From: an uncultured virus (IMG/VR IMGVR_UViG_3300009036_000501) | Taxonomy: Duplodnaviria > Heunggongvirae > Uroviricota > Caudoviricetes | Direction: 5' to 3' (one strand) | IMG/VR virus record: IMGVR_UViG_3300009036_000501 | DNA: 64,000 nucleotides | Shown: piece by piece, positions 32,431 to 54,356 of the stretch | How positions within the stretch are numbered: position 1 is the first letter of the stretch | Layout of the letters: each line of letters begins with the position of its first letter | The notes under the pieces: model-generated | Databases searched by the model: none | Told to the model about the DNA's origin: nothing | What the model saw: only the letters and a program-made list of their open reading frames with translations | Translations under genes and position numbers: made by a program

Positions 32431-32449
32431 TTATCTATTCTGTCTTTTT
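32416..32449. terminator. Bidirectional terminator
   Basis: AAAAAGACAGAATAG-ttat-CTATTCTGTCTTTTT. Confidence 0.75.
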
Positions 32450-32463
32450 CTCTCTTTGCAAGC

Positions 32464-33147
32464 TTATTTACGTTGCAATTTTTCTAAGACAAGTTGTACG
32501 AGGCATTCATGTTGCACTGCTACCGATGTGGAATCAAACACATTTTCCATTTCACGCAAGAAAGCATCTTTGTCTGCTCGGAAGATCATACCTTTGTTCT
32601 TCTGGAGAGTGTCGGCTACTTTTTCGTTGATCTCTGTCACTATCCCATTATACTTCGCACGTACAGTGCCAACAGTCGGAAGGATGGAGCCTATCACGTA
32701 TCCGTGAGAACGGCAAATGCGCGATGCGATCTCTTCTGCCGATGATGTGGGCCGTTCCTTTATAACTGGAGCGACAACCTCTATAAGTTTTCTCACGTCC
32801 TGCTCGTTACGAGGATTGTACTTCACAACTTTGTCACTTCGTACAGTCTCGTAATAAGATTTTTTGTTGACTACAGTTGCTTGTATAAATCCTTTGACCC
32901 CTGTCACACGTTCAAACTCCACCATACCAATATCTGTCTTGCTAGCACGCGCTACAAGTTCCACCTGATGCCTAACTTTTTCATAGTCTGGACTTTCTTT
33001 ATCTATGCTGAAGAGATCAAGAAATAACTTTTCTCTTAGTACTCGCGATTGTTTATAATCCTCTTTGTTGTAGTGATTATTCAAATACTTTACCACTTTT
33101 TCGAATGTTTCGTTATCAATACCTTGCGGCAACATTAGTTCCGTCAT
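32464..33147 (-). CDS. Hypothetical protein
   Basis: 227-aa ORF, GGGGGA RBS, upstream promoter. Confidence 0.7.
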   Translation of the reverse strand: MTELMLPQGIDNETFEKVVKYLNNHYNKEDYKQSRVLREKLFLDLFSIDKESPDYEKVRHQVELVARASKTDIGMVEFERVTGVKGFIQATVVNKKSYYETVRSDKVVKYNPRNEQDVRKLIEVVAPVIKERPTSSAEEIASRICRSHGYVIGSILPTVGTVRAKYNGIVTEINEKVADTLQKNKGMIFRADKDAFLREMENVFDSTSVAVQHECLVQLVLEKLQRK

Positions 33148-33402
33148 AATGTCCAGTCCCCCTGTTAGTGTTTAATGTTGGCGATTGTTGGCGATTCATG
33201 TTTTATTATAACACGTCTAAGTATATTTGCACAAGTTCGAATTTAAGTTGGAAAAGTTTTCCAATTGTTTGTGTATCCACAAACACGATGTGGAACAGAT
33301 GGAGAGATTAAACAGCATATTGGTTGACTGGGGCACATACAGGGTGATAGAATGCGATACAAATTTTGAACATGTATATAAACCAAAGGAGGAGACGCAA
33401 GT

Positions 33403-34464
33403 ATGTCAGAACCAGACGTTATCTCCACAGATAAAAAACGCATCTCATACTCACAAATGTCTTGTTATAAGAGATGTAAGAGAAAATGGTACTACCGGTA
33501 TGTTGAGAAGTTGCAGCCAATATATACCACACGGCCCCTGGCTTTGGGTAAACTGATACACATGGGAATGGAGTGTCTCTATGGCGGGAAAGACTGGCGC
33601 CAAGGCATGTTTGATATGCACATGGAGAATGTAAATCTCATTAAAGATTCGCTGGCTATGCCGGAGGAAGAAAAAGCTCAACACATAGAGGATGCTTCCC
33701 AGTTTTATGAGGATGCTATTGCAGTCTTTGAACGTTATGCAGAACATGATGCCGAAAAGCCTCTGTTGGGACCTGGGTGGAAGGTAGTATCCTTGGAAGA
33801 AGAGTTCTTGGTGAATCTGATTGGTGCAGAAGATCAATTGTATGGGTTCATCGATATGATTGTAGAAGATGCTGATGGAGGGATATGGGGGATCGAGCAC
33901 AAGTCTGGTGAGCAATTCTTCGATGTGGAACAATTGGCGCTCAATGAGCAGACATCACTCTATATCAGTGTACTCAAAAACTATTATGGCAATAACGTAA
34001 AAGGTATGATATACAATCTTGTTCGTACTAAGGTGCCATCTGTACCAAAAATGACCAAAGCAAAAGGCATGTCCAAAGCTGCTATTGATACAACATGGGA
34101 AGTGTATAAAGAAGCACTCCTAGAAAACGGACTCGATCCTGCTGACTATGTAGACATGCAGATGAAGTTAGAAAACAACAAGTTTGTAGATCGTTCTTAT
34201 ATTTACAGAACTAACAAAGAATTGAACAACTTTATTGAAGAAACAGCACATGTAATGCATGCAATCGTTGATCAAGATCCTGACACATGCTATAGAACTC
34301 CTACACGGGATTGCAAATGGGACTGTAAGGAATTCCACGAGTTGTGTATTATGGACTTGAAAGGGCTAGATACAACATACTACAAAGAACGTGCTTTTGT
34401 CACGAGACAAAGTGGTCGTGATACAGAACCAACTGAAGATCAGGAGTTGCCAGAAAACGATTGA
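33403..34464 (+). CDS. PD-(D/E)XK nuclease (RecB/Cas4-like exonuclease)
   Basis: SYSQ...C...W, G..IH, E..F, GFID, EHKS, Q..LY, C-terminal Cys cluster. Confidence 0.85.
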   Translation: MSEPDVISTDKKRISYSQMSCYKRCKRKWYYRYVEKLQPIYTTRPLALGKLIHMGMECLYGGKDWRQGMFDMHMENVNLIKDSLAMPEEEKAQHIEDASQFYEDAIAVFERYAEHDAEKPLLGPGWKVVSLEEEFLVNLIGAEDQLYGFIDMIVEDADGGIWGIEHKSGEQFFDVEQLALNEQTSLYISVLKNYYGNNVKGMIYNLVRTKVPSVPKMTKAKGMSKAAIDTTWEVYKEALLENGLDPADYVDMQMKLENNKFVDRSYIYRTNKELNNFIEETAHVMHAIVDQDPDTCYRTPTRDCKWDCKEFHELCIMDLKGLDTTYYKERAFVTRQSGRDTEPTEDQELPEND

Positions 34465-34623
34465 GACATACCGCCGAGAACCAATATACAGTATATGGAC
34501 AAATTCCATTGACATATTTCTGAGGTATGTGATAGAATACATGTATGAAATTGAGATTGGTACTGTAGTTACCTCTCGAGTAAAACTGTACCTACTCACA
34601 AATGAATGGAGGAATCATATAAC

Positions 34624-35388
34624 ATGATTAATGGCTTGAATATTGAGAAACTCTCTGAAAAAGAACCGGGTATTAAGATCATTGTGTATGGACCCCCAGG
34701 TGTGGGAAAAACATACTTTTCCAGTAGCGCTCCTAAGGCTCTATTCGTAGACGTTGAAGGTGGTACGCTGTCTATCAAAAACGCAGGGCGGCAATTGGAT
34801 GTCGTAAAAGTGAACAAGTTCCGTGATATCTTTGAAATTCACAAGTTCCTTGCCTCGGGCAAACATGAGTATGAGTCCGTCATTGTCGATTCCTTGACTG
34901 AGTTGCAAAAGAAATCCATGGACGGGATCATCGAAGAAGCATATCGCAAAGACCCAACAAAACGCGATCCGGACGTGGCTGAACTTCGTGACTGGGGTAA
35001 AAACACGGCACAACTTCGCAAAGCGGTTCGGTATTTCCGTGACCTTCCTATGAACGTTATTTTTACTGCTCTTGCAAAAGAAAGCAAAGATGAACGTACT
35101 GGAGAAATCAGCATTGGTCCTGACCTAACACCAAAATTGCAAAACGATGTTGCTGGTTATTTGGATATCATTGGTCATATGTCCGCAAAGGACAAAGAAG
35201 ATGGTATCGTACGCCAGATGCTTGTACAACCAACAGGCAAATACATGGCAAAAGACCGCTCAGGCCGATTGGGGAAAGTTGTAAATGCCCCTGATTTCCG
35301 TCAAATCTTGGATGTAATTGAGGGGCGCAGTGCATCCGCTTCGCCAGAAAAAGAACCTGCTCCTACACCATCTTCCACCACTGAGTGA
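34624..35388 (+). CDS. Sak4-like/AAA_24 phage recombination ATPase
   Basis: IVYGPPGVGKT, DVEGG, IVDSLT, AKDRSG. Confidence 0.8.
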   Translation: MINGLNIEKLSEKEPGIKIIVYGPPGVGKTYFSSSAPKALFVDVEGGTLSIKNAGRQLDVVKVNKFRDIFEIHKFLASGKHEYESVIVDSLTELQKKSMDGIIEEAYRKDPTKRDPDVAELRDWGKNTAQLRKAVRYFRDLPMNVIFTALAKESKDERTGEISIGPDLTPKLQNDVAGYLDIIGHMSAKDKEDGIVRQMLVQPTGKYMAKDRSGRLGKVVNAPDFRQILDVIEGRSASASPEKEPAPTPSSTTE

Positions 35389-35479
35389 TATTATTGACGA
35401 GTGGACAGATTTAATGATAGAGTAATACTGTAATACAGGAAATACTGTAATACCAAATAAAACCACACACTTAGGAGAG

Positions 35480-35899
35480 ATGAATACTATGCCTATTATC
35501 AACCTGGATATGTCCAAAACAGAAAACAACAACCTGATCCCAGAGGGGGAATATCAGGCGTTCGTATACGACGTTGCTCAAAGACAAAACAAAGCTGGTG
35601 ATGGCTTCTACCTTAACTGGCAGTTTAAGATCCAAGGTGGAGACAGCGAAGGAAAACTCGTCTTCCACATCACTTCTCTGAAAGACAACGCTCTGTTCAA
35701 ACTTCGTGAACTGTTGGAAGCAATTGGGTATTCGGTACCTACAGATGGTCAGTTGGAACTCGATACAGACGATCTGATGGGCAAGAAATGTACCCTTGTT
35801 ATTGGACACCGCGAGTACCAAGGCAAGCAGCAAAACGAGATTCGTGAAATCTTGACAGCTAAGGCGTCTGAGCAAGACGAGTTTGACAACGAATACTAA
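35480..35899 (+). CDS. DUF669-family single-stranded DNA-binding protein
   Basis: IPEGEY N-terminal motif, OB-like pattern, acidic/aromatic tail EQDEFDNEY; follows Sak4. Confidence 0.7.
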   Translation: MNTMPIINLDMSKTENNNLIPEGEYQAFVYDVAQRQNKAGDGFYLNWQFKIQGGDSEGKLVFHITSLKDNALFKLRELLEAIGYSVPTDGQLELDTDDLMGKKCTLVIGHREYQGKQQNEIREILTAKASEQDEFDNEY

Positions 35900-35950
35900 A
35901 ACCCACAGGACAGGGCCACGAGCCCTGTCCTTATCTATGTGTCGGCTGAT

Positions 35951-36238
35951 TCATTTACGCTCTTCTGGATGTCCGCAATACCGACAACAATCCTCGTCGT
36001 ATTCCCCATCTTCTTGTGTGTAGTCGCACAAATGATCCGGAGAATCGGGGCACCACCATCCGCTTCTGGTCTCACAAACGCCACATTTGGCTTCACCATA
36101 AGTGTCTTTTCTAAACTCATGTATACAACTGGACTTCAAGTGCTTTATTTCATCTCGGATGGTTTCTTCTTCCTTTTTCACATCTGTTAGTCTGCGTTGT
36201 AATTGTGCAAGCCTCTCTTTGATCTTTTCAGCTTTCAT
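35951..36238 (-). CDS. Small coiled-coil, Cys-rich (Zn-binding) protein
   Basis: CxxC...WWCPDSPDHLC...C.YCG; AGGAGG RBS. Confidence 0.7.
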   Translation of the reverse strand: MKAEKIKERLAQLQRRLTDVKKEEETIRDEIKHLKSSCIHEFRKDTYGEAKCGVCETRSGWWCPDSPDHLCDYTQEDGEYDEDCCRYCGHPEERK

Positions 36239-36489
36239 TCGGCCCCTCCTTTCTCTGAAAACTATTAAACCACATCAATTTGTTATACGTCAAGAGCCTA
36301 CTTCTCACGCGTGCGCCCACGGAACCTTTTCTGGAAAAGAAGTAAATTGTTTGTTATTGTTTGTGTTTGTGTGTAATAGTGCTAGAAACATAACTGTTTA
36401 TAGTATTGACAAGTGTCTAGATTTTGTGATAAAATTATATTAATCCCACATTGTGGAATATAATAAAAATGTCTAAGGAGTGTTGTCTA

Positions 36490-37830
36490 GTGTCTACTGA
36501 ACTACTTAACCAAATTTATGTCGATGAAATGCAAGAAATGGTCGGAGCTGAAATTGTTTCTGCACTTGATGCCGTGAAGAAAAACAAGGCAGAAATTGCT
36601 AAGCTTGAGGCAGAACGTGCTCAGGTTTGTCCTCCAGAAGTAAAAGAACTTGAGGATAAGATCGCAGAAGCTCTAGCGAATAAAAAGAACAAAGAAGCTC
36701 TTCGGTTACGTAAAGAACTCAAAAAAATCTACCCAAGCTCCGTGCTTGCAGGTCTGGACTTCAAGTTGGAACGAGCACGCAATTGGCGTTTGTCTAATTC
36801 CGTAGCTCCGATGATGTTCTGGGGTCCTCCAGGATCGGCAAAAACACAAGGTATTACACACGCAGTTAAAAACCTGACCAATGAAAAAGGTTTGCGTGTA
36901 GCACTTATTACAACATTCATGAGTGCTTATGACCAAGTGGCGTTGCGCGGTATGCCAACGATTGACCGTGAAAATGAGGTTACCGTTTGGTATCCACAGG
37001 AAAGCTTCCCTTCCGAACTCAACTGCGCCGACTACGACGTAGTTGTATGGATGCTTGATGAACTTTCCGCCGCATCTCGTCCTGTTCAACCTGTATTGTA
37101 CCGACTTTTGCAAGAAGGACAAATCGAGGGAATGATTCTTCCTAAGAACGTCATGATGATTGCAGCAGGTAATGACAAAGATGACCGCGCTATTGCGATG
37201 GATATGTCGTCTGCAATGTCCAACCGGATGGTGCACTTCGATGTTCGTCCTTCTTTGGACCCTTGGAAACAATGGGCTATCCAATCGGGCGTTCACCCGA
37301 TGGTTATCGCTTACCACAACTCCAACCAAGGTCAAAATCTACACAACATGGATACATCCGTAGTTGGTATGATGAAGGCTTTCCCAACGTACCGTACATG
37401 GGAGAAAGTTTCCGATGATGTTTACAAGTACCACAAAAAGCCAGAGCGTCTTCTGGACTTGCGGGTCATCGGACATGTTGGTCCTGTGGCTGGAATCGAA
37501 TTCAACACATTCTTCAAACTCTTTGATCAACTGCCTGACCCAGAAGGAATTCTGGATGGTAAAGTTGAGGCAGTTCCAAAAGAGGATGATATCATCTACG
37601 CAACTCTTTCCAACCTCGTTGCTTGCATTCTCAAGAAACACACACCTGAACGTATGGACAACTTCTTCAAGTACATTTCGGCAGTGTGTGAGACTCGGGA
37701 TGAAATGGGATACATGGCTATCAATGATATGTTCCGTTCTAAGAACAACACTGTCATTCAAATGGCTATGAAAACCGCAGGCTGGACGAGATGGGCAAGC
37801 AAGATCATCAATATGCAAAGCTGGAGCTAA
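36490..37830 (+). CDS. MoxR-like AAA+ ATPase
   Basis: WGPPGSAKT, LDELSAA, AAGN, SNRMVH, PTYRTW; GTG start after AAGGAG. Confidence 0.8.
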   Translation: MSTELLNQIYVDEMQEMVGAEIVSALDAVKKNKAEIAKLEAERAQVCPPEVKELEDKIAEALANKKNKEALRLRKELKKIYPSSVLAGLDFKLERARNWRLSNSVAPMMFWGPPGSAKTQGITHAVKNLTNEKGLRVALITTFMSAYDQVALRGMPTIDRENEVTVWYPQESFPSELNCADYDVVVWMLDELSAASRPVQPVLYRLLQEGQIEGMILPKNVMMIAAGNDKDDRAIAMDMSSAMSNRMVHFDVRPSLDPWKQWAIQSGVHPMVIAYHNSNQGQNLHNMDTSVVGMMKAFPTYRTWEKVSDDVYKYHKKPERLLDLRVIGHVGPVAGIEFNTFFKLFDQLPDPEGILDGKVEAVPKEDDIIYATLSNLVACILKKHTPERMDNFFKYISAVCETRDEMGYMAINDMFRSKNNTVIQMAMKTAGWTRWASKIINMQSWS

Positions 37831-37970
37831 ACCACAACTAGAAAGAGGACAGCAACTTTGCTGTCCTCTTTCTCTTTGTCAGGGGCGAATAAGTATTGAC
37901 TTAACGTGGTATTATGTGTTACAATAAACGCAGATTTAGATCTTATAATATATGTAAGGAGTGTTGTATT

Positions 37971-39374
37971 GTGTCAAAGTCAATTAGCGCAGCTGAGCGT
38001 ATTTCAACGGTAAAAATCGATCTTATGGAACAAGAACCTTTCCTCGCGGTGCTGGGTGTTAAAACTAGGCACGTGCTGGACAACAATGAACCCACGATGT
38101 ACGTCAATGGTAAGATCATGGGATTCAATGAGGAGTTTGTGTTGGCTCAGAGCAAAGGTACGCTTAAGGGTGTAGTAGCTCACGAAATTATGCACATCGC
38201 TTTATTGCATTTGTATCGTCGTGGTGCACGTAATAGTCTTCTCTACAACTACGCGACCGACTTTGCTATCAACTGGATTCTTCGCGAGTCAAAATTCGAT
38301 CTGCCAGATGGCGGTTTGTACAGCGCTGATTTCGCAAACATGGGTGCAGAAGTCATCTACGACAAGCTTGTAGAAGCCTTGAAGAAAGAAGGCATCGACC
38401 CCAAATCTGTTGGCAAAAACCCTTCTGGCGGTCAACAGCAGTCTGGTGGACAACAATCTGGTGGACAACAATCCGGTGGACAACAATCCGGTGGACAACA
38501 ATCTGGTGGACAACAATCTGGTGGACAATCTGGTGGACAACAGTCTGGTGATCAAGGTTCTGGCCCAAGCAATAAACAAGTACATGATGCGCTCAGCAAG
38601 CACTTCGATATCGAAGGTGACCGAGTTGTGGGTAGTCATGATATGTGGGATAAGAACATGTCGGCAGAGCAAAAACAACGCGCTACAGATGATTTAGCTA
38701 GTGCAGTCAGACAAGCACAAATGGTAGCAAACATGAAACGCCAACAACAAGGAAAAGGATCTAGTCTCATTGACCGAATGATTGATGAGTTGCTGAAACC
38801 AAAGATCACTTGGCAAAAGTACGTAAAGTCCTTGATCAGACCGCGTGAGTTGGATACTTGCTACACAAATCCGGACAGATACTACTCCTATCGGGGCGAT
38901 ATCGACATGTCTATGGGAGACATTCCTTTCCCTGGCGACACCCCTGCAGGTGAGAAACTTGAAGGAGTCGTGTTTGTACTAGACACCTCCGGTTCTATAA
39001 CCCGTCAAGAAGCAACAGGATATTTATCCGAGATGCAAGGACTTATGCGTCAATTCCCAGATACACTTGCAATGTACATGTCTTGTGATTACGACTGCAC
39101 AGACCCTGTGGACTTGCAAACCGTGGATGGAACTACTATCGATCTCAAAACTGTCAAACTTAAAGGTGGCGGCGGTACATCCTTTAAACCTCCTTTCGAG
39201 TTCTTTGCAGCACCTGAAAACAAGCGCAAGTTCGATGTTCAATTGTTGGTTTACTTCACAGATGCGTATGGGGATTTCCCAACGGAAAAACCGCCATACC
39301 CAACAATCTTCTGTGTAACAACAGATGCCATCAAGAATGTGCCTGATTGGGCTATCGCTATTGACTTGAGATAA
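37971..39374 (+). CDS. DUF2201-like HExxH metallopeptidase plus vWA-like domain
   Basis: HEIMH...H..R, N.ATD.AIN, DTSGS MIDAS, GGGGTSF, FTD.YG. Confidence 0.85.
   Translation: MSKSISAAERISTVKIDLMEQEPFLAVLGVKTRHVLDNNEPTMYVNGKIMGFNEEFVLAQSKGTLKGVVAHEIMHIALLHLYRRGARNSLLYNYATDFAINWILRESKFDLPDGGLYSADFANMGAEVIYDKLVEALKKEGIDPKSVGKNPSGGQQQSGGQQSGGQQSGGQQSGGQQSGGQQSGGQSGGQQSGDQGSGPSNKQVHDALSKHFDIEGDRVVGSHDMWDKNMSAEQKQRATDDLASAVRQAQMVANMKRQQQGKGSSLIDRMIDELLKPKITWQKYVKSLIRPRELDTCYTNPDRYYSYRGDIDMSMGDIPFPGDTPAGEKLEGVVFVLDTSGSITRQEATGYLSEMQGLMRQFPDTLAMYMSCDYDCTDPVDLQTVDGTTIDLKTVKLKGGGGTSFKPPFEFFAAPENKRKFDVQLLVYFTDAYGDFPTEKPPYPTIFCVTTDAIKNVPDWAIAIDLR
38424..38555 (+). repeat. In-frame 15-bp tandem repeat (TCYGGTGGACAACAA) encoding an SGGQQ linker
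   Basis: About 8 units, including one shortened 12-bp unit. Confidence 0.9.
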
Positions 39375-43004: not shown

Positions 43005-43144
43005 GACATGTATACTTTGACGTCTTTTCTGACATAGATGGAATTGAGCATGTTCCGAGCATCCGGTTTTAATTCATTGACTATACATACCGAACTGTGA
43101 TACAATTACAGTACAACACCAAAATTGATTTAGGAGGACTTAAT

Positions 43145-44227
43145 ATGGAAAGATCTTTAGATGTTATTCTCGACTTGTCGTTTGGTTCGTGTGGTAAAGG
43201 CCTTATCGGGGGCTATCTCGCCACTCGTAACAAGTACGACTTCGCTATAGAGAGCTATGGTGTGCAGGCTGGCCATACGGTTATTAAGGAAGATGGCACT
43301 ACATACGTTGTACAACAACTCCCACAAGCACTGATCGACCCAGATGTGAAATTGTATATTGGGGCTGGAGCAGTAATCGACATTGATCAGCTCAAAAAAG
43401 AAGTGGATGAGTATCTAGGCGGCATGGAAAAAGCAAAAGGTCGTTTGTTCATTCACCCACGCGCTTCTGTAATTCAAGACCAACATAAACAGTGGGAAAG
43501 AGAAAACATTAGATCTGGTAGCACATTTAAAGGTGTTGGAGCAGCCAGTGGGTTTAAGGCCATGAGACACCCGGATCACACCCTCATTAAAGATTTACCA
43601 GAGTGGGCCGACTTTATTGCGGATACAGCTGAACTCGCTTGTGATGCTTTAGAAGATGGCAAATCAGGCATTCTGGAAGTGGCTCAAGGATTCGAACTAG
43701 GTTTAAACCACGGGTTCCAGTATCCTAATTGTACAAGTCGGGAATGCACACCTATGCAAGGTCTATCGGACAATGGTATTCCTCCAAAACACGTTCGCGA
43801 CACATATGGTGTAATCCGGACGTACCCAATTCGTATTTCCAATGAAATGGCTACTTCCGAAGGTGGACAAGCCTACTCAGGTGATGGCGGTAAAGAAATC
43901 ACCTGGGAAGAAGTAGAAGACCGGGCAGGTGCTCCACGTGGTGCATTCTCCTCAAAAGAATTAACTACAGTGACTAAAAAGCTCCGTCGTGTCTTTGAAT
44001 TCGATGTGGAACGTATCAAGCGGGCTGTGAAAATCACAGGGGTAAACAAATTGGCCGTCAACTTCATTCAGTATGTCAACTATGTTGATGCTGGCGTTAC
44101 TGATTACGAAAAACTGTCTGAAAAATCAAAAGAATTTATTCGGATGATTGAGAAAGAAACAGGTGTACCAGTAGTTCTTATTGGTACCGGACCTCGTAAC
44201 GACCAAGTCATCGACCTAGAAGCATAA
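43145..44227 (+). CDS. purZ: Adenylosuccinate-synthetase homologue with PurZ signature
   Basis: FGSCGKG (Ser in place of the PurA Asp), AGHT, GST..GVG, E.AQG, YP.CTSR, RTYPIR, TTVTK..RR, NFIQ in place of TKLD; 360-aa short form. Confidence 0.75.
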   Translation: MERSLDVILDLSFGSCGKGLIGGYLATRNKYDFAIESYGVQAGHTVIKEDGTTYVVQQLPQALIDPDVKLYIGAGAVIDIDQLKKEVDEYLGGMEKAKGRLFIHPRASVIQDQHKQWERENIRSGSTFKGVGAASGFKAMRHPDHTLIKDLPEWADFIADTAELACDALEDGKSGILEVAQGFELGLNHGFQYPNCTSRECTPMQGLSDNGIPPKHVRDTYGVIRTYPIRISNEMATSEGGQAYSGDGGKEITWEEVEDRAGAPRGAFSSKELTTVTKKLRRVFEFDVERIKRAVKITGVNKLAVNFIQYVNYVDAGVTDYEKLSEKSKEFIRMIEKETGVPVVLIGTGPRNDQVIDLEA

Positions 44228-44235
44228 TATAAAAC

Positions 44236-44272
44236 AAAAAGAGAGAGTTCACACATGTGACTCTCTCTTTTT
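44236..44272 (+). terminator. Terminator after the purZ-like gene
   Basis: AAAAAGAGAGAGT...ACTCTCTCTTTTT. Confidence 0.75.
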
Positions 44273-49168: not shown

Positions 49169-49798
49169 GTGGATATATTGCAACCTGGACTATTTGTTGT
49201 GTTTGAGGGACCAGAAGGAGCCTCGAAAGGAACACAATCCCAACTATTTGCGGATTATTTACAGGATAAAAAAATCCCATACATACACACACGAGAGCCA
49301 GATGGCCCTATTCGTAGTGTTTTGCTTGATCCTGCAAATACGGGAATGATACACGATGACACAGAAGTGTTGTTGTACGCTGCTTCACGCGTTAACAAAT
49401 TTTTAACCGAAATAAAACCTGCGCTTGAAGAAGGAAAAGTTGTGGTATGTGATCGTTACCTTGAGTCCTCTCTCGCATATCAGGGTTATGCTGGTGGAGT
49501 GGATCTAGCGAAGATACTGAGCATCCATGACGCTTTTATAAATGATAGCAGGGTGACTCTGTTGTTTGACATTTCTTATGAAACAAGCAGGAAAAGGTTG
49601 GGGACACGGGGAGAAGCGCTAGATAGGCTCGAGATGAAGTCAGAAGTATATCACAGAAAAGTTATTGATGGTTATAGGAAACTAGCCAAAGATTACTCTC
49701 ACATTAAGCGTATAGATGCGAATCAAACAATTGATCAAGTACATTCAGAAGTGTTGAGTTTATTGACTCCACTACTGGAAGAAAGAGGGATGTTATGA
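49169..49798 (+). CDS. tmk: Thymidylate kinase
   Basis: FEGPEGASKGT P-loop variant, TREP, E.LLYAASR, CDRY..SSLAYQG, DRLE. Confidence 0.85.
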   Translation: MDILQPGLFVVFEGPEGASKGTQSQLFADYLQDKKIPYIHTREPDGPIRSVLLDPANTGMIHDDTEVLLYAASRVNKFLTEIKPALEEGKVVVCDRYLESSLAYQGYAGGVDLAKILSIHDAFINDSRVTLLFDISYETSRKRLGTRGEALDRLEMKSEVYHRKVIDGYRKLAKDYSHIKRIDANQTIDQVHSEVLSLLTPLLEERGML

Positions 49799-50310
49799 GT
49801 AAACGAGTAATTATATCTCTCATTTCTCCACCTGGAGGTGGGAAAACAACTATACTTAAGCATTTGTCCGAGCATCACCAATTGCCCATACTGAGTTCGG
49901 GAGATATAGCGAGGCAAATGCAGAGGGATACAGAAACGAATTTCCTAATACAAGGGGGATTTGCTCCTGAAGAAGAGATGAGACGCAGACTCTTAGAATC
50001 CATTGAGACATTATTTGTCTCTAGCAACGTGATACTGGCTGATGGGTTCCCGAGATTCGTTGACCAGCTGAATTGGTTGGAAAACTCTCTAGATGGCGTG
50101 GATATTGTATTGTACCACTTGGATGTGCCATTGGACAAATGTAGAGACAGACTGCAGTCTCGCAATCGTTCTGATGACAATGAAGAAACTATAGAGGCAA
50201 GATTCAAACAATATACTGAACAAACAGAGCCAATTGTCACTTCGCGACATCTGCGACGGTACAATTATGATTTTGTGACTCAAGTAATTCTTGCGGCAAA
50301 GAAAAATTAG
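49795..50310 (+). CDS. Adenylate-kinase-family NMP kinase (short LID)
   Basis: PPGGGKT, SSGDIAR, DGFPR, R.RSDDNEETI..R. Confidence 0.8.
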   Translation: MSKRVIISLISPPGGGKTTILKHLSEHHQLPILSSGDIARQMQRDTETNFLIQGGFAPEEEMRRRLLESIETLFVSSNVILADGFPRFVDQLNWLENSLDGVDIVLYHLDVPLDKCRDRLQSRNRSDDNEETIEARFKQYTEQTEPIVTSRHLRRYNYDFVTQVILAAKKN

Positions 50311-50323
50311 GAGGTTTAATACA

Positions 50324-51325
50324 ATGCAAATGTGCTATCTTGCAGGTGCTATCGATATGGTTATTCCAGAACAGGCTAGAGGTTGGAGAGACAATGTCTC
50401 TAAAGTGTTAAACGATCATGGCATCCACACTTTTGATCCAGCTTCTGCTTTTAATCTATCTCGTAAGGATAGCGAGACATGGTTGTCCAAAACAGATATG
50501 GTTATCAAACTAAACAACATGGCCTTAGACAGTTCCGAGATTATGCTGGCCGAAATGGAATTTAATTGCCAGCATACAGGCACTACCCGCGAACTTATTC
50601 GTGCCAGTGAACAAGATGGGAAGCTTGTTGTGGTGTGGAACTCAAGCGAGTATACTCCCCTATATCTCACAGATATCCCCAATCTTGTTATCAAATCTAC
50701 ACTGGCAGAGTGTGTGGAATATATTATCGAAAAAATAACAGGGGTCGCTCCTAGTCCCGACGTATGCCGTTCTGTATTGGAAACTAAAGTGGACAAACCT
50801 GCCATTAAAGTTATGCTGACTGAAAAGCATCCTTTAATGATCGCAAAAGAACGTGGTGAAATTTCCGATATTGATCCTTCAATGCTGTTATTCAAGAAAC
50901 ACAGCGATGATACTGGGTATGACATTATGTGCACTGAGAACGTGACAGTACCTCCAGGGGGAAAAGTACAAGTGCCAACACATTTGGCTATCCAGCCGCC
51001 AAAAGGTTACTGGTATCGTTTGGTTGCTAGATCCTCAACATTCCATGTCCATGAGATGCTGGTGGTAGAAGGCATCATCGATACACAATTCCGAGGTGTG
51101 TTGTACTGCAACATTCAGAACATGAGCAATGAGACTAAGACAATCCGTGCTGGTGATTCTGTGGCCCAACTGATATTCCATGAGATCGTAGGCGAACATT
51201 GGGATGTGTCAGTGCACGACTCTCTGGATGCTACGGATCGTGGTGAAGGTGGATTCGGAAGTACAACTGCTTCTAAAGACTTTATCGTGGAGATGTACCA
51301 AAAATACGCTTCCGTGACGGTTTAA
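50324..51325 (+). CDS. Fusion of nucleoside 2-deoxyribosyltransferase/Rcl-like domain and trimeric dUTPase-like domain
   Basis: N-terminal YLAG, WR, DP, GT..E; C-terminal GYD, RSS, GIIDTQFRG, AQL, RGEGGFGST. Confidence 0.8.
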   Translation: MQMCYLAGAIDMVIPEQARGWRDNVSKVLNDHGIHTFDPASAFNLSRKDSETWLSKTDMVIKLNNMALDSSEIMLAEMEFNCQHTGTTRELIRASEQDGKLVVVWNSSEYTPLYLTDIPNLVIKSTLAECVEYIIEKITGVAPSPDVCRSVLETKVDKPAIKVMLTEKHPLMIAKERGEISDIDPSMLLFKKHSDDTGYDIMCTENVTVPPGGKVQVPTHLAIQPPKGYWYRLVARSSTFHVHEMLVVEGIIDTQFRGVLYCNIQNMSNETKTIRAGDSVAQLIFHEIVGEHWDVSVHDSLDATDRGEGGFGSTTASKDFIVEMYQKYASVTV

Positions 51326-51382: not shown

Positions 51383-51586
51383 CTGGTTAAATATTGTAAT
51401 TATTGTGGGTATGTATATATACATGATTTAATAAGAATATAAGTTGATATTAAGTGGCAGATAGAGTGATATAGTAGGACATAATGAACTAACGAAAATA
51501 TACTGTAATGATTGTACTAAAATACAGTGTATGCTATAATGGCGATAGTAGTTCATACGAATGTGTGGAAGGAGATGATAAAGCCA

Positions 51587-52243
51587 ATGATGGGCCACAC
51601 ACATTTCACATTCGGTGCATTATTCGCAGCTGTCGCTGTCAACACTGGGCATGCGGAACCGACAGTGGCCTTTTTTCTTGGCTCATTAATAGGTTCACTA
51701 GCTCCAGATTTAGATCACCCGCAGGCAATGTTGTCCAAAAAAATACCATTGAGTGGAGCGACAATAGGATTTCTCAGGCATAGAACGCTAACGCATTCTT
51801 TGGTTGGACTGGCTATAGCCTATTCTATAGGGAAATACTTAGTACCCCTACTCCTAAGCAAGTTATGGTCTTTATTGATGACAAGCTTACCTGGGCAAGT
51901 AGACACATTGCTCCAGATCCAAGACCTAAGTGCTACATACTTCGGATCCGGATTTTTGTGGGGGTTCATGCTGGGATATATCAGTCACATTTTTATAGAC
52001 TTGTTCAATCCCATGGGTGTCCAACTATTTTATCCCTTCGAGTTTCTGCCGAATAGAGGATGGGTTAATCCACCTTTTGGTCTTGGGATAGGAACGGGCA
52101 CTATTTGGGAACTGATGTTTGCAGTAGTGAGTTTGCTCATTACCACATACGTTAGTCCCATGACCGGTTTATCTGTGGGTATATTAGTCTTTATATTCTG
52201 GTACCTCATAGGGAAACCCGGTCTTCCAAGATATAGACTTTAG
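51587..52243 (+). CDS. YdjM-like membrane metal-dependent hydrolase
   Basis: M.G.TH, GSLAPDLDH, HRTLTHS, SH...D..NP.GV...YP. Confidence 0.85.
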   Translation: MMGHTHFTFGALFAAVAVNTGHAEPTVAFFLGSLIGSLAPDLDHPQAMLSKKIPLSGATIGFLRHRTLTHSLVGLAIAYSIGKYLVPLLLSKLWSLLMTSLPGQVDTLLQIQDLSATYFGSGFLWGFMLGYISHIFIDLFNPMGVQLFYPFEFLPNRGWVNPPFGLGIGTGTIWELMFAVVSLLITTYVSPMTGLSVGILVFIFWYLIGKPGLPRYRL

Positions 52244-52261
52244 TTAGGAGGATGTAGAACA

Positions 52262-53122
52262 ATGTTGCGTATCAATCCAAGAGTAATACCAAGGATAATA
52301 GCTTGGCTATTGCTAGTATTTATTGCAGGTGCTCTGTTGATTAATATTCTAGGCGGGAAGGAACAGGTGACTGAAGAGTCCCAGTCCAATCTCGATGATC
52401 AGATCTCCAGCATCGCGGTAGCTTTTACCAAGCAATGGATGACTCTAGAAGAGAAAGAAACACCTGATGTATTCCGGAAGAGAATCGAACCTTATGTAAC
52501 ACCTGCCCTACTAACTAATCAAGCCGGTAGGACGAATGTTACTAATGTAACGAGTCAACGGGTCATTGACGCTTGGATGAAGTCTTACACGAAACTCGAT
52601 GCTACTCATTTCACAGCAGATGTAGTGGTTTATGTATCCTCTAACAACATTAAGGCCTATAAAGTGGTAAATGTCCCACTGGCACTTAATGCAGAAACCA
52701 ATCAGCTTGTCGTGAATGAAAGACCGAGTTTTTCACCAGTGATAGCCACTAGTGATGTGGGAAGCATGGACTTTGGTAAACAAGTGAATGTAGCTAACAC
52801 AGATCAATTAAGAGTAACACTTTCCAATTTCTTCCAGAAGTATCTTGGTTCTTCAGATCCTGCTGAGTTATCGAACTTCCTAATGGATAGTTCCAAAAAC
52901 ACCATTATGCCGAAAGGTGGATTGGTGGAATTTAAAAACATAGTAACCATGCAGACATTCTTAATGGGGTCTGCAACCGAAGAATCAACTGTTAAAATGT
53001 ATTTGGCTAGAGTAACGGTAGCTACACAAGATGTTTTCTCTAACAGTGTGGTGGAGTCCGACTACAGCTTGATGATACAAGAACAAGGTGATAAATACCT
53101 GATACAGAAAATATCGCCTTAA
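52262..53122 (+). CDS. TcpC/ConB (VirB8-like) conjugation protein
   Basis: Single N-terminal TM, two repeats with F...W / FF..Y; position in the T4SS operon. Confidence 0.7.
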   Translation: MLRINPRVIPRIIAWLLLVFIAGALLINILGGKEQVTEESQSNLDDQISSIAVAFTKQWMTLEEKETPDVFRKRIEPYVTPALLTNQAGRTNVTNVTSQRVIDAWMKSYTKLDATHFTADVVVYVSSNNIKAYKVVNVPLALNAETNQLVVNERPSFSPVIATSDVGSMDFGKQVNVANTDQLRVTLSNFFQKYLGSSDPAELSNFLMDSSKNTIMPKGGLVEFKNIVTMQTFLMGSATEESTVKMYLARVTVATQDVFSNSVVESDYSLMIQEQGDKYLIQKISP

Positions 53123-53143
53123 CTAAACCTAGGAGGAATTATT

Positions 53144-53512
53144 ATGACTACTCAAAAAATGTTGAAAATTGTAATGATTGCCCTGATGGCGCTTGTTATT
53201 GGACTCTCCTTTGCGGCACCTAATGTGGCACTTGCAGATGGTTTTACAGATGCTCCGACTAGCTTGACAGACACTAGCGGAACAGGAACAGACAGTCCGG
53301 TAGGTAAACTTGGTGGATGGGTAGCTCAACAATTGATGTACCTCTACGCTTTGATGGTAGCTGTAGTTTCCATCGTCTTTGTTGTTAAACACGAATACAG
53401 CAAACTGGTGGCGTTCTTGGTAATTGCGATCATCGTTGCTATCCCTATCTTCGCACCAAACGTAATCCCATCCATCGCTGAGTCCATCTCCAAAGCGATC
53501 ACAGGAAAATAA
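53144..53512 (+). CDS. VirB2/TcpD-like small membrane protein
   Basis: Signal peptide (ALA|D) plus two TM helices. Confidence 0.6.
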   Translation: MTTQKMLKIVMIALMALVIGLSFAAPNVALADGFTDAPTSLTDTSGTGTDSPVGKLGGWVAQQLMYLYALMVAVVSIVFVVKHEYSKLVAFLVIAIIVAIPIFAPNVIPSIAESISKAITGK

Positions 53513-53584
53513 GTTTAGCATTAATTGGCAACCTTCGGGTTGCCAATCTGCTATCTACATAACGTGCTTGAGGAGGTAAATAGT

Positions 53585-54328
53585 GTGTCGAACAAGAGAG
53601 TTGGACCTTTCAGTAGTTACAAAAGCTTATTCAAAATACAACACGTTATTTACAAATTAGGAAACATAAGACTCTGGGGTTTTGGGGTCAGTTTTGACCA
53701 GTTGATCACTGGTGCTGTCGTAGCAGCCTTTTTGATGGCTCTCTATGCTATATTCCCTTTGCTAAATTACTTTTTCATTAATAAGTGGATAGTTATAGTT
53801 GTCGCTTTTTTAGCTTCCATGTGGGCGAGCGCAAGGTACGAATTAGGCGGTAAGTCAATCCTCATGTGGACAATAGGAATAATTCTTTGGTCTGTAAGAG
53901 GTAAATACACCGCGCGTGGTCGTACTATTAAAAAGCCACGGTACAAGAAAGAAGGAATATACTTTTATGCGTCATCCCGTCGTGTAGAAACAACGAGCAC
54001 AGGTGCTCAAAGGTGTGTAACACCTGCAGTGATTAGCTACGATCAGTTAGAGCATATAAAGGTTTCAGGTGCACACAAACTTCGCATAGATCCAAGCGGC
54101 AAACATATAAAAATAACTCCCCTACGACAGGCTAAGAAAAGTGCCATAGTGGATGGAGAGATGATCCTCTTACCTAAGAAAAAGATAAGCTCTTTGACAA
54201 CCCCTGATGTTCCGATCATCATAGATAACACACTCATTATTTCCCAACCAGCATCCTCTCCAAAAAAGGTAGTGAAACACAAACCAAAATATGGGATGGC
54301 GCTGTTTGTGGAAGAAAACAATTCGTAA
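53585..54328 (+). CDS. TcpE (VirB3-like) membrane protein
   Basis: SY...FKI..VIYKLG...L, two TMs, GK motif; precedes VirB4. Confidence 0.65.
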   Translation: MSNKRVGPFSSYKSLFKIQHVIYKLGNIRLWGFGVSFDQLITGAVVAAFLMALYAIFPLLNYFFINKWIVIVVAFLASMWASARYELGGKSILMWTIGIILWSVRGKYTARGRTIKKPRYKKEGIYFYASSRRVETTSTGAQRCVTPAVISYDQLEHIKVSGAHKLRIDPSGKHIKITPLRQAKKSAIVDGEMILLPKKKISSLTTPDVPIIIDNTLIISQPASSPKKVVKHKPKYGMALFVEENNS

Positions 54329-54356
54329 ACAATCTAATTTAGGCGGTGAATGTACA

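What the first reader, a model, noticed from the sequence alone, without database searches (positions are those of the whole stretch)
43145..44227. PurZ-like (Z-base, 2-aminoadenine) synthase on a conjugative element
Seen: a short adenylosuccinate-synthetase fold with FGSCGKG, TTVTKKLRR and NFIQ, with its own promoter and terminator. Established: PurA has a catalytic Asp in GDEGKG and a GTP-selecting K-x-D. PurZ has Ser at that Asp (to fit the 2-amino group of dGMP) and F-x-N (ATP use), and is known mainly from lytic phages with Z genomes. By manual alignment this protein has Asp->Ser, K->F, D->Q and G298->T, plus an unusual QAGHT instead of NAGHT. Inference: a T4SS/ParM-bearing replicon in a living cell makes dZMP or a related modified purine, perhaps for partial anti-restriction substitution during transfer or as an anti-phage nucleotide. 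That would be an unusual context for Z biosynthesis.
Basis: partly seen in the sequence, partly recalled or inferred. Interest (0 to 1): 0.92.

Follow-up and report, generated by a model that had tools for sequence, protein, structure and literature searches.

The report
PurZ-type gene on a conjugative element
A large conjugative, plasmid-like DNA element from soil bacteria carries the enzyme set that some phages use to replace adenine with 2-aminoadenine (Z) in their DNA, which hints that Z-DNA chemistry may exist outside viruses.

Summary
It has its own promoter-like site, ribosome-binding site and strong terminator.

It carries Ser at the catalytic Asp position and the five residues reported to distinguish phage PurZ. 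In two trees it falls inside the clade that holds the characterised ATP-type phage PurZ enzymes, apart from PurZ0, DPANN-archaeal and Asp-type sequences.

New here: 6 kb downstream lies a fusion of a nucleoside-deoxyribosyltransferase-like domain and a dUTPase domain. This is the DmtZ-DutZ architecture of Z-genome actinophages, and the DmtZ catalytic residues are conserved. Thymidylate kinase, an adenylate-kinase-like kinase and a proofreading PolA sit beside it.

The module is syntenic in a 76%-identical relative. By contig-length matching, PurZ, the fusion and VirB4 co-occur in at least two further elements. The window holds a complete Firmicute-type conjugation system and no virion genes.

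Caveats: activity and Z content are untested. Only 64 kb of a replicon of at least 239 kb is visible. Sister PurZ-clade genes sit in ordinary bacterial chromosomes, so Ser alone does not prove Z synthesis. No published link between PurZ and conjugative elements was found.

The parts
43077..43106 (+). sigma-70-like promoter of purZ-like gene (TTGACT, 18 nt, TG-n-TACAAT)
   Evidence: 10 of 12 matches, TG present; consensus match only, number of sites in region not above chance
43145..44227 (+). PurZ-clade short adenylosuccinate-synthetase homologue, 360 aa (Ser15, Gln41, Thr274, Phe307, Gln309, Tyr310); RBS AGGAGG at 43133-43138
44236..44272 (+). intrinsic terminator after purZ-like gene
   Evidence: -20.5 kcal/mol, z -5.08, followed by U-run
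50324..51325 (+). fusion of NDT-like (DmtZ-like, aa 1-140) and dUTPase (DutZ-like, aa 160-300) domains, 333 aa as called (ORF from TTG 50291 is 344 aa)
49795..50310 (+). adenylate-kinase-like nucleotide kinase (171 aa)
   Evidence: PF00406 7.9e-18; 36% identical to adk of Bacillus phage vB_BpsS-140, which also has a PurZ-clade gene and dut
49169..49798 (+). thymidylate kinase
   Evidence: PF02223 2.5e-38; conserved in L103
39542..41788 (+). family A DNA polymerase with 3'-5' exonuclease domain
   Evidence: 67% identical in L103
42025..43004 (+). two small genes between PolA and purZ (151-aa phrog_1981 protein; 175-aa DUF3267 membrane protein), conserved in L103
44613..47366 (+). C5 cytosine DNA methyltransferase interrupted by a 344-aa LAGLIDADG intein (nt 44985-46016) inside the catalytic P-C-Q motif
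19558..39374 (+). phage-type replication/recombination module: SNF2 helicase, DinG-like helicase, CCA-adding-like enzyme, MgsA AAA+, PD-(D/E)XK exonuclease, Sak4, DUF669 SSB-like, AAA ATPase, DUF2201 (one 810-aa and one 227-aa ORF on the - strand)
51527..62068 (+). Firmicute-type T4SS: YdjM, TcpC/ConB-like, small 3-TM protein, TcpE, VirB4 (AAA_10), 1067-aa 11-TM protein (TcpH/ConG-like by position and topology), SLT+M23 cell-wall hydrolase
1752..3737 (+). type IV coupling protein (TraG/VirD4 family)
   Evidence: (PF02534 5.2e-16, PF12696), 4 N-terminal TM-like segments
4884..5873 (-). Replic_Relax relaxase-like protein (a second one at 18050-18907 +)
8513..9577 (+). actin-like (ALP/ParM-type) partition ATPase
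   Evidence: phrog_691 1.5e-49; PF17989, PF21522
14427..17669 (+). T4SS-pilin-like protein (weak) and 841-aa P-loop ATPase related to SPO1 gp27.4 / phage D6E 'T4SS DNA transfer' protein

Best explanation
The gene is a working member of the PurZ clade. It sits in a large conjugative, plasmid-like replicon of a soil or rhizosphere Bacillota host.

**Proposed pathway (inferred from characterised homologues).**
1. [quoted passage not shown]
2. The fusion's DmtZ-like domain destroys dAMP. It may also load free Z base onto deoxyribose-5-phosphate.
3. PurZ condenses dGMP with aspartate, using ATP or dATP rather than GTP.
4. Host PurB releases dZMP.
5. The element's adenylate-kinase-like kinase and host NDP kinase raise dZMP to dZTP.
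6. The element's own proofreading PolA and phage-type replication module put Z opposite T in the element's DNA.

**Proposed purpose.** Z-substituted DNA, together with C5-cytosine methylation from the adjacent methyltransferase, would protect the transferred DNA from restriction in recipients.

**Shown here.** Family placement, diagnostic residues, domain architecture, synteny and the link to the T4SS.

**Inferred, not shown.** Every enzymatic step, any Z in DNA, and the purpose.
For: **PurZ residues.**
- Ser15 replaces the catalytic Asp. 27 of 27 rows in alignment A1 and 76 of 80 rows have Ser.
- phiVC8 PurZ residues F12, S14, T262, F295 and Y298 are named as 2-amino-group and ATP determinants (preprint 10.1101/2025.10.22.683976, passages read). 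They align with window F13, S15, T274, F307 and Y310.
- The GTP-specifying Asp position is Gln309. It is Asn in phage PurZ and Asp in PurZ0, DPANN and Asp-type rows.

**Database matches.**
- The best solved-structure match is phiVC8 PurZ 6fm1, E 4.9e-45.
- phrog_1211 gives E 5.9e-66.

**Trees.**
- A 53-row clade with SH-aLRT 100 holds the window clade, six named phage PurZ and Bacillus phage vB_BpsS-140 (76 rows).
- A 26-row clade at 100/100 and a 19-row subset with phage PurZ at 97/96 hold it in the careful tree (44 rows).

**The downstream fusion.**
- Pfam gives dUTPase E 4.4e-22 and NDT-like E 7e-4.
- Relatives P0122 and P0124 carry PF15891 and/or PF05014 together with PF00692.
- In the AlphaFold model (pLDDT 82.6), residues 1-140 match NDT, MilB and DNPH1 folds at Z 15.2-11.5. 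Residues 160-300 match dUTPases at Z 17.
- Ghobes DmtZ Tyr6, Asp12, Pro57, Asn77 and Glu103 (PMC12884076, sections 22-23 read) align with Y5, D11, P39, N64 and E90. All five are invariant in 16 of 16 rows.
- The fusion is 27% identical to the Wayne fusion over 298 aa, E 8e-28.
- 110 of 1520 matching phage records cover at least 80% of it. The top ones are PurZ0 Arthrobacter and Streptomyces phages.

**Synteny.** L103 (76% PurZ, on a 303-kb contig) keeps 10 window genes in the same order:
- AAA ATPase
- DUF2201
- PolA (67%)
- RuvC-like
- DUF3267
- PurZ
- MTase
- Tmk
- ADK-like
- NDT-Dut

**Link to conjugation.** Relatives of all three genes lie on contigs of 31038 and 175240 nt:
- PurZ at 78% and 76%.
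- The fusion at 62% and 56%.
- VirB4 at 72% and 71%.

The window holds T4CP, TcpC, TcpE, VirB4, an 11-TM protein, SLT+M23, two relaxases and ALP.
Against: **Function is not measured.** No activity or DNA composition can be measured here.

**Curated cut-offs are missed.** NCBIfam PurZ model NF038379 scores 222.1, below its cut-off of 300. The archaeal PurA model NF003295 scores about the same (223.6, cut-off 368).

**Odd or archaeal-like features.**
- The C-terminal 45 residues are very like P. horikoshii PurA.
- Gln replaces the otherwise conserved Asn of NAGHT, as in DPANN homologues. The effect is unknown.

**Nearest relatives are cellular.**
- In the careful tree the window clade's nearest sister (87/95) is a set of cellular and metagenomic sequences, not the phage PurZ group.
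- That 40-46% family lies among housekeeping genes (rpsB, tsf, recA, nusA, rimP) with a NUDIX partner in 3 of 3 loci inspected.
- In 2 of 5 such genomes it is the only PF00709 homologue. One of those two has purB but no purH. Ser-type enzymes may therefore serve ordinary AMP synthesis in some cells.

**Missing or unspecific pathway parts.**
- No DatZ (HD), MazG or purB is found in the window.
- PolA's best phage matches are non-Z phages at 28-31%.
- The Dut domain looks like a standard dUTPase.

**Other limits.**
- A Z pathway is toxic in E. coli (PMC8342488, passages read), so a resident plasmid would need tight control.
- Only 64 kb of a replicon of at least 239 kb is visible.
Confidence: 0.55

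Rival explanations
1. The enzyme belongs to a cellular branch of Ser-type synthetases. These would do ordinary or salvage purine work, such as AMP supply from IMP or nucleotide-pool balancing. The element carries it, like its Tmk, kinase, dUTPase (and RNR in a relative), simply to feed its own replication with normal dNTPs. No Z is made.
For: - The window clade's sister group is cellular or metagenomic.
- The 40-46% family sits in housekeeping context in 3 of 3 loci inspected.
- It is the sole PF00709 homologue in 2 of 5 genomes, one of which has purB but no purH.
- DPANN archaea carry Ser-type homologues with the same QAGHT.
- The relative L103 adds a ribonucleotide reductase to the module.
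- The PurZ HMM cut-off is not reached.
Against: - All five reported dGMP and ATP determinants are present.
- The preprint text says the Ser-to-Asp change abolishes substrate selectivity in phage PurZ.
- The DmtZ-like domain keeps the catalytic triad and the dAMP-specifying Asp. An enzyme that destroys dAMP makes little sense in a module meant to boost normal dNTPs.
- The MAGs used for the 'sole homologue' count may be incomplete.
Confidence: 0.2
2. The replicon is really a phage or a phage-plasmid whose virion genes lie outside the 64-kb window. PurZ serves packaged Z-DNA as in known Z phages, and the T4SS is a second transfer route or a co-resident module.
For: - The replication module is phage-type by PHROGs: Sak4, PD-(D/E)XK exonuclease, PolA, DUF669.
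- The 841-aa ATPase is shared with SPO1-like Bacillus phages in 147 phage records.
- The closest named PurZ relative is in Bacillus phage vB_BpsS-140, which also has adk and dut.
- Only 64 kb of at least 239 kb can be seen.
Against: - No capsid, portal, tail or true terminase family is found among 47 ORFs. The two 'terminase' PHROG hits are weak matches to the ATPase parts of T4CP and VirB4.
- No tRNA is found.
- A complete conjugation gene set, two relaxases and a partition ATPase are present.
- No match to any of 50,697 phage records by megablast.
Confidence: 0.15
3. The module is a defence or competition device rather than a genome-modification system. It would either drain dATP and dGTP through the Dut, NDT and PurZ activities, or make dZTP to poison invading phage or rival-plasmid replication.
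For: - The gene has its own promoter and terminator.
- The Wayne fusion converts dATP to adenine (PMC12884076, section 20 read), which would deplete dATP.
- A DinG-like helicase and an SNF2 helicase in the window hit PADLOC models.
Against: - No PADLOC family matches PurZ, the fusion or the kinase: 0 families at E 1e-5.
- The genes are embedded in, and syntenic with, the replication module in a 76% relative.
- No sensor or effector partner is evident.
Confidence: 0.07
4. It is an ordinary PurA paralogue that uses IMP and GTP.
For: - Pfam PF00709 matches.
- Public annotations of relatives say 'adenylosuccinate synthetase'.
Against: - Ser, not Asp, sits at the catalytic position, and Gln sits at the guanine-specifying Asp position.
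- TIGR00184 scores 161.8 against a cut-off of 395.55.
- It is separated from Asp-type rows by branches at 99/98 and 100/100.
Confidence: 0.03

Closest known systems
Phage PurZ (phiVC8, S-2L, SH-Ab 15497): ATP-using N6-succino-2-amino-2'-deoxyadenylate synthase
   Same: - Same clade in both trees.
- Ser at the catalytic Asp position, Thr274, Phe13, Phe307 and Tyr310.
- No Asp at the GTP-specifying position.
- Best PDB hit is 6fm1.
- A family A polymerase gene lies a few kb upstream, as in phiVC8, Bm1 and Wayne.
   Different: - Only 33-37% identical.
- Keeps an archaeal-PurA-like C-terminus that phiVC8 PurZ does not align to.
- Gln replaces Asn in NAGHT.
- No DatZ, MazZ or DUF550 partner in the window.
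- Sits in a T4SS-bearing element rather than a virion genome.
PurZ0 system of actinophages (Wayne, Ghobes): PurZ0 + DutZ + DmtZ (PMC12884076)
   Same: - NDT-like plus dUTPase fusion with the DmtZ catalytic triad, Asp12 and Pro57 equivalents.
- Gene neighbourhood of PolA, synthetase and fusion.
- No DatZ.
   Different: - The synthetase is not PurZ0. It lies in a separate clade at 100 support and has Gln where PurZ0 keeps Asp.
- The fusion is only 27% identical to Wayne's.
- The host is Bacillota-like, not Actinomycetota.
- The combination of a PurZ-clade enzyme with a DmtZ-DutZ fusion is not the pairing described in that paper (sections 24-26 read).
Bacillus phage vB_BpsS-140 purA-like gene
   Same: - Closest named relative at 41.3%.
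- Same phage genome also carries adk (36% to the window kinase) and dut.
   Different: - It is a tailed phage with lysis and structural genes next to the locus.
- Its Dut has no NDT domain.
- Whether its DNA holds Z was not found in any paper read here.
Chromosomal Ser-type AdSS plus NUDIX genes of gut Clostridia/Bacilli MAGs, and DPANN Ser-type AdSS
   Same: - Ser-type P-loop, TTVTKK, and NF.Q/N (gut family) or QAGHT (DPANN).
- The gut family shares the 100-supported clade with the window.
   Different: - Housekeeping neighbourhood.
- Their partner is a NUDIX hydrolase, not DmtZ-DutZ.
- No shared neighbours with the window.
- Function unknown.
ICEBs1 / pLS20 / Tcp-type conjugation systems of Firmicutes
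   Same: - TcpC, TcpE, VirB4 (AAA_10), a multi-TM channel protein, an SLT+M23 hydrolase and a T4CP.
- VirB4 is 27% identical to Bacillus plasmid proteins.
- The ICEBs1 gene order is recalled, not from a call.
   Different: - Very distant in sequence.
- No megablast match to 72,556 plasmids.
- Carries a phage-type replisome and a Z-type nucleotide module.

Membership tests
PurZ (ATP-type, phage clade) | Ser in place of the catalytic Asp13 of PurA (S14 in phiVC8) | tested here: met
   Ser15
PurZ (ATP-type, phage clade) | [quoted passage not shown] | tested here: met
   F13 and T274 by alignment; the residue roles are taken from preprint text
PurZ (ATP-type, phage clade) | Adenine-stacking F295/Y298 and loss of the guanine-specifying Asp | tested here: met
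   F307, Y310; Gln309 where PurZ has Asn and PurZ0/PurA have Asp
PurZ (ATP-type, phage clade) | Groups with characterised PurZ in a tree, apart from PurA and PurZ0 | tested here: met
   SH-aLRT 100; 100/100 and 97/96. No Pyrococcus-type Asp archaeal PurA could be added; the outgroup was two Asp-type sequences
PurZ (ATP-type, phage clade) | Reaches NCBIfam NF038379 curated cut-off | tested here: not met
   222.1 bits against cut-off 300
PurZ (ATP-type, phage clade) | Makes dSMP from dGMP + Asp + ATP; Z present in the replicon's DNA | not testable with these tools
   needs enzyme assay and LC-MS
PurZ0 (GTP-type) | Retains archaeal-type guanine pocket (Asp at the D333-equivalent) and falls in the PurZ0 clade | tested here: not met
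   Gln309 against Asp in Wayne and Ghobes in the residue table, with TMLD/TMVD motifs in Hiyaa and Goodman; PurZ0 clade separate at 100
Canonical PurA | Catalytic Asp13, K-x-D GTP motif, curated HMM cut-offs | tested here: not met
   Ser15, Phe307/Gln309; TIGR00184 161.8 against 395.55; NF003295 223.6 against 368
DmtZ-DutZ fusion | N-terminal NDT-superfamily fold joined to a C-terminal trimeric-dUTPase fold | tested here: met
   Model pLDDT 82.6; VIA Z 15.2-11.5 to NDT/MilB/DNPH1 over residues 1-140 and Z 17 to dUTPases over 160-300; Pfam
DmtZ-DutZ fusion | DmtZ catalytic triad Tyr6/Asn77/Glu103 plus Asp12 and Pro57 (Ghobes numbering) | tested here: met
   Y5, N64, E90, D11, P39; invariant in 16 of 16 rows; roles from PMC12884076
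DmtZ-DutZ fusion | dATP/dGTP diphosphatase and dAMP hydrolase/Z-transferase activity; Dut domain inside the DutZ clade | not tested
   No DutZ-versus-Dut tree was built; activity needs assay. The Dut domain resembles ordinary dUTPases
DpoZ (Z-preferring PolA) | Membership of a DpoZ subfamily / Z-over-A preference | tested here: inconclusive
   PolA with exo domain present; 26-28% to Wayne and phiVC8 polymerases; best phage hits are non-Z phages. The paper read states that no single motif defines the specificity
Firmicute conjugative T4SS (Tcp/ICEBs1 type) | VirB4 ATPase, coupling protein, relaxase, TcpC/VirB8-like, TcpE, polytopic channel protein, cell-wall hydrolase | tested here: met
   The channel protein is assigned by 11 TM-like segments and its position only

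The most novel reading that the evidence does not exclude
This family of large conjugative elements (at least three diverged members in soil and root metagenomes) replicates or transfers its own DNA with 2-aminoadenine in place of adenine. It would use a hybrid pathway: an ATP-type PurZ plus a DmtZ-DutZ fusion plus its own kinase and PolA. That would make it the first non-viral Z-DNA replicon. Z together with m5C would act as a double shield against restriction in recipients.
Probability: 0.35. Interest if true: 0.95.

Novelty: new variant of a known kind. Interest (0 to 1): 0.8.

Why it matters
**Where Z-DNA is known.** In the papers read here, Z-DNA is described only in phage genomes.
- Two literature searches looked for PurZ on plasmids or conjugative elements. 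'PurZ' with 'conjugative' gave 4 papers. One of them, opened, matched only an author name, and none of the titles bears on PurZ enzymes.
- 'PurZ' with 'plasmid' and '2-aminoadenine' gave 12 papers. By title and abstract these concern engineered E. coli plasmids or phages.

**If a resident, self-transmissible replicon makes and uses Z.**
- It extends an alternative genetic alphabet to plasmids.
- It raises the question of how a living host tolerates or compartmentalises dZTP.
- It suggests a new anti-restriction strategy for conjugation.
- It offers a natural Bacillota-compatible gene set for Z-DNA engineering.

**Second point.** PurZ-clade genes with every published 'diagnostic' residue also sit in ordinary chromosomes of reduced-genome bacteria and DPANN archaea. 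Calling Z genomes from Ser14 alone may therefore be unsafe.

Tried and rejected
- **Whole genome of the window:** none is held.
- **Earlier findings:** nothing by place, sequence or words.
- **Megablast of 39-62 kb against plasmids and phages:** no match.
- **First genome-contig scan with the single protein:** no relative found. The viral-contig scan gave one 36% relative only.
- **Reaching the rest of the L100 and L103 contigs with the genome search:** the records are not held. The flanks of the replicon therefore stayed unseen.
- **DatZ (HD), MazG, DUF550 and purB in the window:** none were found in 47 large and 35 further ORFs.
- **PADLOC:** no family matched PurZ, the fusion or the kinase.
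- **tRNA and Rfam:** none.
- **Palindrome avoidance as a proxy for restriction pressure:** mean z was -0.82 for A/T-containing 4-mers and -0.84 for GC-only 4-mers. This gives no signal either way.
- **Sequencing runs:** 2 DNA holders, and no RNA holder listed.
- **Foldseek with the whole fusion model:** the listed rows were all dUTPases. The N-domain match came from the VIA wide search.
- **Canonical Asp-type archaeal PurA:** none could be brought into the tree with the tools allowed.
- **DutZ-versus-Dut tree:** not built.
Full report
**1. The observation**

The + strand ORF runs 43097..44227 from a GTG. An AGGAGG box at 43133-43138 precedes the ATG at 43145, and this start gives the 360-aa protein that the protein collection holds as P0001.

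The protein matches several family models:
- Pfam PF00709, E 1.6e-42.
- PHROG 1211 '2-aminooxy adenylosuccinate synthetase', E 5.9e-66.
- In NCBIfam, both the archaeal PurA model NF003295 (223.6 bits, cut-off 368) and the PurZ model NF038379 (222.1 bits, cut-off 300). Neither reaches its cut-off.

A promoter-like site, TTGACT-18 nt-TACAAT with a TG, lies at 43077-43106. Promoter-like sites in the 3-kb region are no more frequent than in shuffles (8 found against 8.8 expected). A hairpin at 44236-44272 folds at -20.5 kcal/mol (z -5.08; 0 of 200 shuffles as good) and is followed by a U-run. A second, stronger promoter-like site (11 of 12 matches) starts the next transcription unit at 44282. The gene therefore looks like a unit of its own.

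**2. What the protein is**

Against solved structures, the matches are as follows:

| Structure | E-value |
|---|---|
| phiVC8 PurZ (6fm1), best hit | 4.9e-45 |
| Pyrococcus horikoshii PurA | 9e-43 |
| S-2L PurZ | 2.5e-37 |
| PurZ0 of phage Archimedes | 3.4e-31 |

The alignments show PurZ-like active-site strings. The C-terminal 45 residues align well with the archaeal enzyme but were not aligned to phiVC8 PurZ.

A preprint (10.1101/2025.10.22.683976; abstract and passages read) names the phiVC8 residues that matter. [quoted passage not shown] F295 and Y298 stack the adenine of ATP. The same text says that S14D abolishes substrate selectivity. In an 80-row MAFFT alignment these align with window F13, S15, T274, F307 and Y310.

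The position that is Asp in PurZ0, DPANN and Asp-type rows is Asn in phage PurZ and Gln309 here. That argues for ATP or dATP rather than GTP as the phosphate donor.

On donor preference, one sentence in PMC12884076 (section 24) gives the preferences of PurZ0 and PurZ in the opposite order from the preprint's introduction. The alignment agrees with PurZ0 keeping the guanine-type Asp.

Ser at the catalytic position is found as follows:
- 27 of 27 rows of alignment A1.
- 76 of 80 rows of the larger set. The other four are two Asp-type outgroups, one Gly, and one truncated row.

**3. Trees**

The first tree was a quick IQ-TREE (LG+C20) of 76 rows. Four of the 80 rows were left out: the truncated P0007, the broken L073, and the long and odd L094 and L097. 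The outgroup was two Asp-type sequences.
- A 53-row clade with SH-aLRT 100 holds the window clade (6 rows, support 100), six named phage PurZ (phiVC8, SH-Ab 15497, Bm1, Kokobel2, VLCpiS6a, OH) and a large metagenomic family that includes Bacillus phage vB_BpsS-140.
- DPANN-archaeal Ser-type sequences are the sister group (support 99).
- PurZ0 (support 100) and a Rhizobiales kinase-fused group lie further out.

The second tree was a careful LG+G4 tree of a 44-row subset of those 80.
- The equivalent clade has 26 rows at 100/100.
- The window sits in a 19-row subset with the phage PurZ at 97/96.
- Its immediate sister (87/95) is a group of cellular and metagenomic sequences.

I could not add a Pyrococcus-type Asp archaeal PurA. 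The statement about clustering is nonetheless root-independent.

**4. The neighbourhood**

Downstream lie a thymidylate kinase (49169-49798), an adenylate-kinase-like kinase (49795-50310) and a 333-aa protein (50324-51325).

The 333-aa protein is a two-domain fusion:
- Its C-terminal half is a dUTPase (PF00692, E 4.4e-22).
- Its N-terminal half weakly matches nucleoside 2-deoxyribosyltransferase families (E 7e-4).
- Two close relatives, P0122 and P0124, carry precomputed NDT Pfam domains beside the dUTPase domain.
- An AlphaFold model from a 16-row alignment (pLDDT 82.6, pTM 0.50) was searched against about 48,000 PDB representatives. Residues 1-140 match an E. faecalis NDT-like protein, the Desulfotalea and B. 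psychrosaccharolyticus deoxyribosyltransferases, MilB and Rcl/DNPH1 at Z 15.2 to 11.5. Residues 160-300 match dUTPases at Z 17.
- These are the same structural neighbours that PMC12884076 lists for the N-domain of the phage Wayne protein (section 19 read).

That paper names the two activities DmtZ and DutZ, and describes them as follows:
- DutZ is a dATP and dGTP diphosphatase.
- All 98 PurZ0 genomes have dutZ, 85 have dmtZ, and 77 have the two fused.
- Tyr6, Asn77 and Glu103 are catalytic, Asp12 is needed for activity, and Pro57 is transferase-like.

Aligned with Ghobes gp53, these residues are Y5, N64, E90, D11 and P39 in the window protein. All five are invariant in 16 of 16 rows of A2.

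By blastp the window protein is 27% identical to the Wayne fusion over 298 residues, E 8e-28. By tblastn, 110 of 1520 matching phage records cover at least 80% of it. These are led by Arthrobacter and Streptomyces phages, the groups that also carry PurZ0.

Upstream lie a family A polymerase with a 3'-5' exonuclease domain (39542-41788) and a phage-type replication set.

No HD-domain (DatZ), MazG or purB gene was found in the window.

**5. Conservation**

L100, from a metagenome contig, is the same element: 99.98% identical over window 33145-54224.

L103 has a 76%-identical PurZ and lies on a 303-kb contig. It keeps AAA ATPase, DUF2201, PolA (67%), the RuvC-like gene, DUF3267, PurZ, the C5 methyltransferase, Tmk, the ADK-like kinase and the NDT-dUTPase fusion in the same order. 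A ribonucleotide reductase large subunit is inserted after PolA.

In the protein collection, relatives of three window genes lie on contigs of exactly the same lengths:

| Gene | Relative on 31038-nt contig | Relative on 175240-nt contig |
|---|---|---|
| PurZ | P0004, 78% | P0006, 76% |
| NDT-Dut fusion | P0122, 62% | P0123, 56% |
| VirB4 | P0171, 72% | P0172, 71% |

I infer, but did not see, that these are the same two contigs. If so, the link between the Z-type module and the T4SS is kept across at least three diverged elements.

**6. The replicon**

The window encodes a full conjugation and maintenance set:
- a coupling protein;
- two Replic_Relax relaxases;
- an actin-like partition ATPase;
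- a pilin-like protein;
- an SPO1 gp27.4-like ATPase;
- in one row, YdjM, TcpC, a small 3-TM protein, TcpE, VirB4, a 1067-aa protein with 11 TM-like segments, and an SLT+M23 hydrolase.

VirB4's nearest plasmid relatives, at 27%, are on Bacillus, Shouchella and Enterococcus plasmids.

No capsid, portal, tail or genuine terminase family was found among 47 ORFs. The two 'terminase' PHROG hits fall on the ATPase parts of T4CP and VirB4. There are no tRNAs.

Two DNA runs hold the stretch. Their organism labels are 'rhizosphere metagenome' and 'root metagenome'.

**7. What cuts against a simple reading**

The next tier of relatives (40-46% identity, part of the same 100-supported clade) is abundant in species-representative genomes. 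Of 258 pattern matches, 158 encode relatives, and the 80 kept are all at 45% or below. These loci share no neighbour with the window.

In 3 of 3 loci examined, the gene lies in a housekeeping neighbourhood. It is fused or adjacent to a NUDIX hydrolase, and the neighbours are rpsB, tsf, recA, nusA, rimP, aldolase and ispD.

The five such genomes searched gave these results:
- Two have no other PF00709 homologue.
- One of those two has purB but no purH.
- One genome (Heliobacterium chlorum) has a full-length canonical purA.
- One MAG has a full-length purA next to a purB-like gene that scores just under its curated cut-off, plus two further PF00709 homologues.
- One MAG has a further, weaker PF00709 homologue (160.9 bits, covering 362 of the 416 model positions).
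- Four of the five are MAGs and may be incomplete.

DPANN archaea also carry Ser-type homologues, and they share the unusual QAGHT with the window clade: 9 of 10 DPANN rows and 6 of 6 window-clade rows.

So the published residue signature may not be enough to infer Z synthesis. What singles out the window is its partner genes.

Other points against:
- PolA is not specifically DpoZ-like, and the paper read says that no motif defines that specificity.
- The Z cluster is toxic when expressed in E. coli (PMC8342488, passages read).

**8. Verdict**

The most likely reading, at about 0.55, is a functional PurZ-type pathway that serves the element's own phage-like replisome. The stronger claim, that the element's DNA is Z-substituted, I put at about 0.35.

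The rivals:

| Rival | Confidence |
|---|---|
| Ser-type synthetase with an ordinary or salvage role | 0.2 |
| Phage-plasmid with unseen virion genes | 0.15 |
| Defence or pool-poisoning device | 0.07 |
| Plain PurA | 0.03 |

The phage-plasmid rival is not exclusive of PurZ function.

In the paper library, none of the 16 papers returned by two searches describes a natural plasmid or conjugative element with PurZ, judged from titles, abstracts and one passage.

Noticed in passing
L022, L028, L047 (genome-contig loci); G002-G006: PurZ-clade, Ser-type synthetase genes (40-46% to the window) sit in ordinary chromosomal neighbourhoods of reduced-genome gut Clostridia/Bacilli MAGs. The neighbours include rpsB, tsf, recA and nusA. 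The gene is fused or adjacent to a NUDIX hydrolase, and in one case lies near Ham1, HD and UDG genes. In 2 of 5 genomes it is the only PF00709 homologue. Either cells have a Z-like purine metabolism, or Ser-type enzymes can act as ordinary AdSS.
   Followed up: partly
L068-L085 (DPANN archaeal MAG loci): DPANN archaeal homologues carry Ser at the catalytic position (WGSEGKG) and Gln in QAGHT, as the window clade does, but they keep the guanine-type Asp.
   Followed up: partly
L005, L089, L092, L093, L095: Rhizobiales plasmids and chromosomes encode proteins of about 530-545 aa in which a P-loop kinase-like N-terminus is fused to a Ser-type AdSS domain (PNAGHK, GTVSGK). They form a separate, well-supported clade. 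Their function is unknown.
   Followed up: no
window 44613-47366 (intein 44985-46016): The C5 cytosine methyltransferase is split by a 344-aa intein with a LAGLIDADG domain. The intein is inserted exactly before the catalytic Cys of the P-C-Q motif: GGFP | C...HN | CQAFS.
   Followed up: partly
window 21835-23838: A DinG-like helicase matches a PADLOC 'type IV-A CRISPR-associated DinG' model almost end to end (E 1.7e-122). No Cas genes or CRISPR array were looked for.
   Followed up: no
window 15144-17669: An 841-aa P-loop protein has no Pfam family but matches phrog_5156 strongly (E 1.3e-179). It is shared with SPO1-like Bacillus myophages (gp27.4) and phage D6E, where it is annotated as a T4SS DNA-transfer family protein. 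147 phage records match.
   Followed up: partly
window 24284-25774 and 7697-8347 (-): A CCA-adding/poly(A)-polymerase-family enzyme is encoded although the window has no tRNA gene. A MecA-like adaptor protein gene lies near the primase-like gene.
   Followed up: no
L103 5647-8181: The 76% relative carries a ribonucleotide reductase large subunit between PolA and the RuvC-like gene. The window lacks it.
   Followed up: no
protein P0005: One 78%-identical PurZ relative is filed in a public database under a bdelloid rotifer assembly, on a 456-kb contig. It is probably bacterial DNA in that assembly.
   Followed up: no
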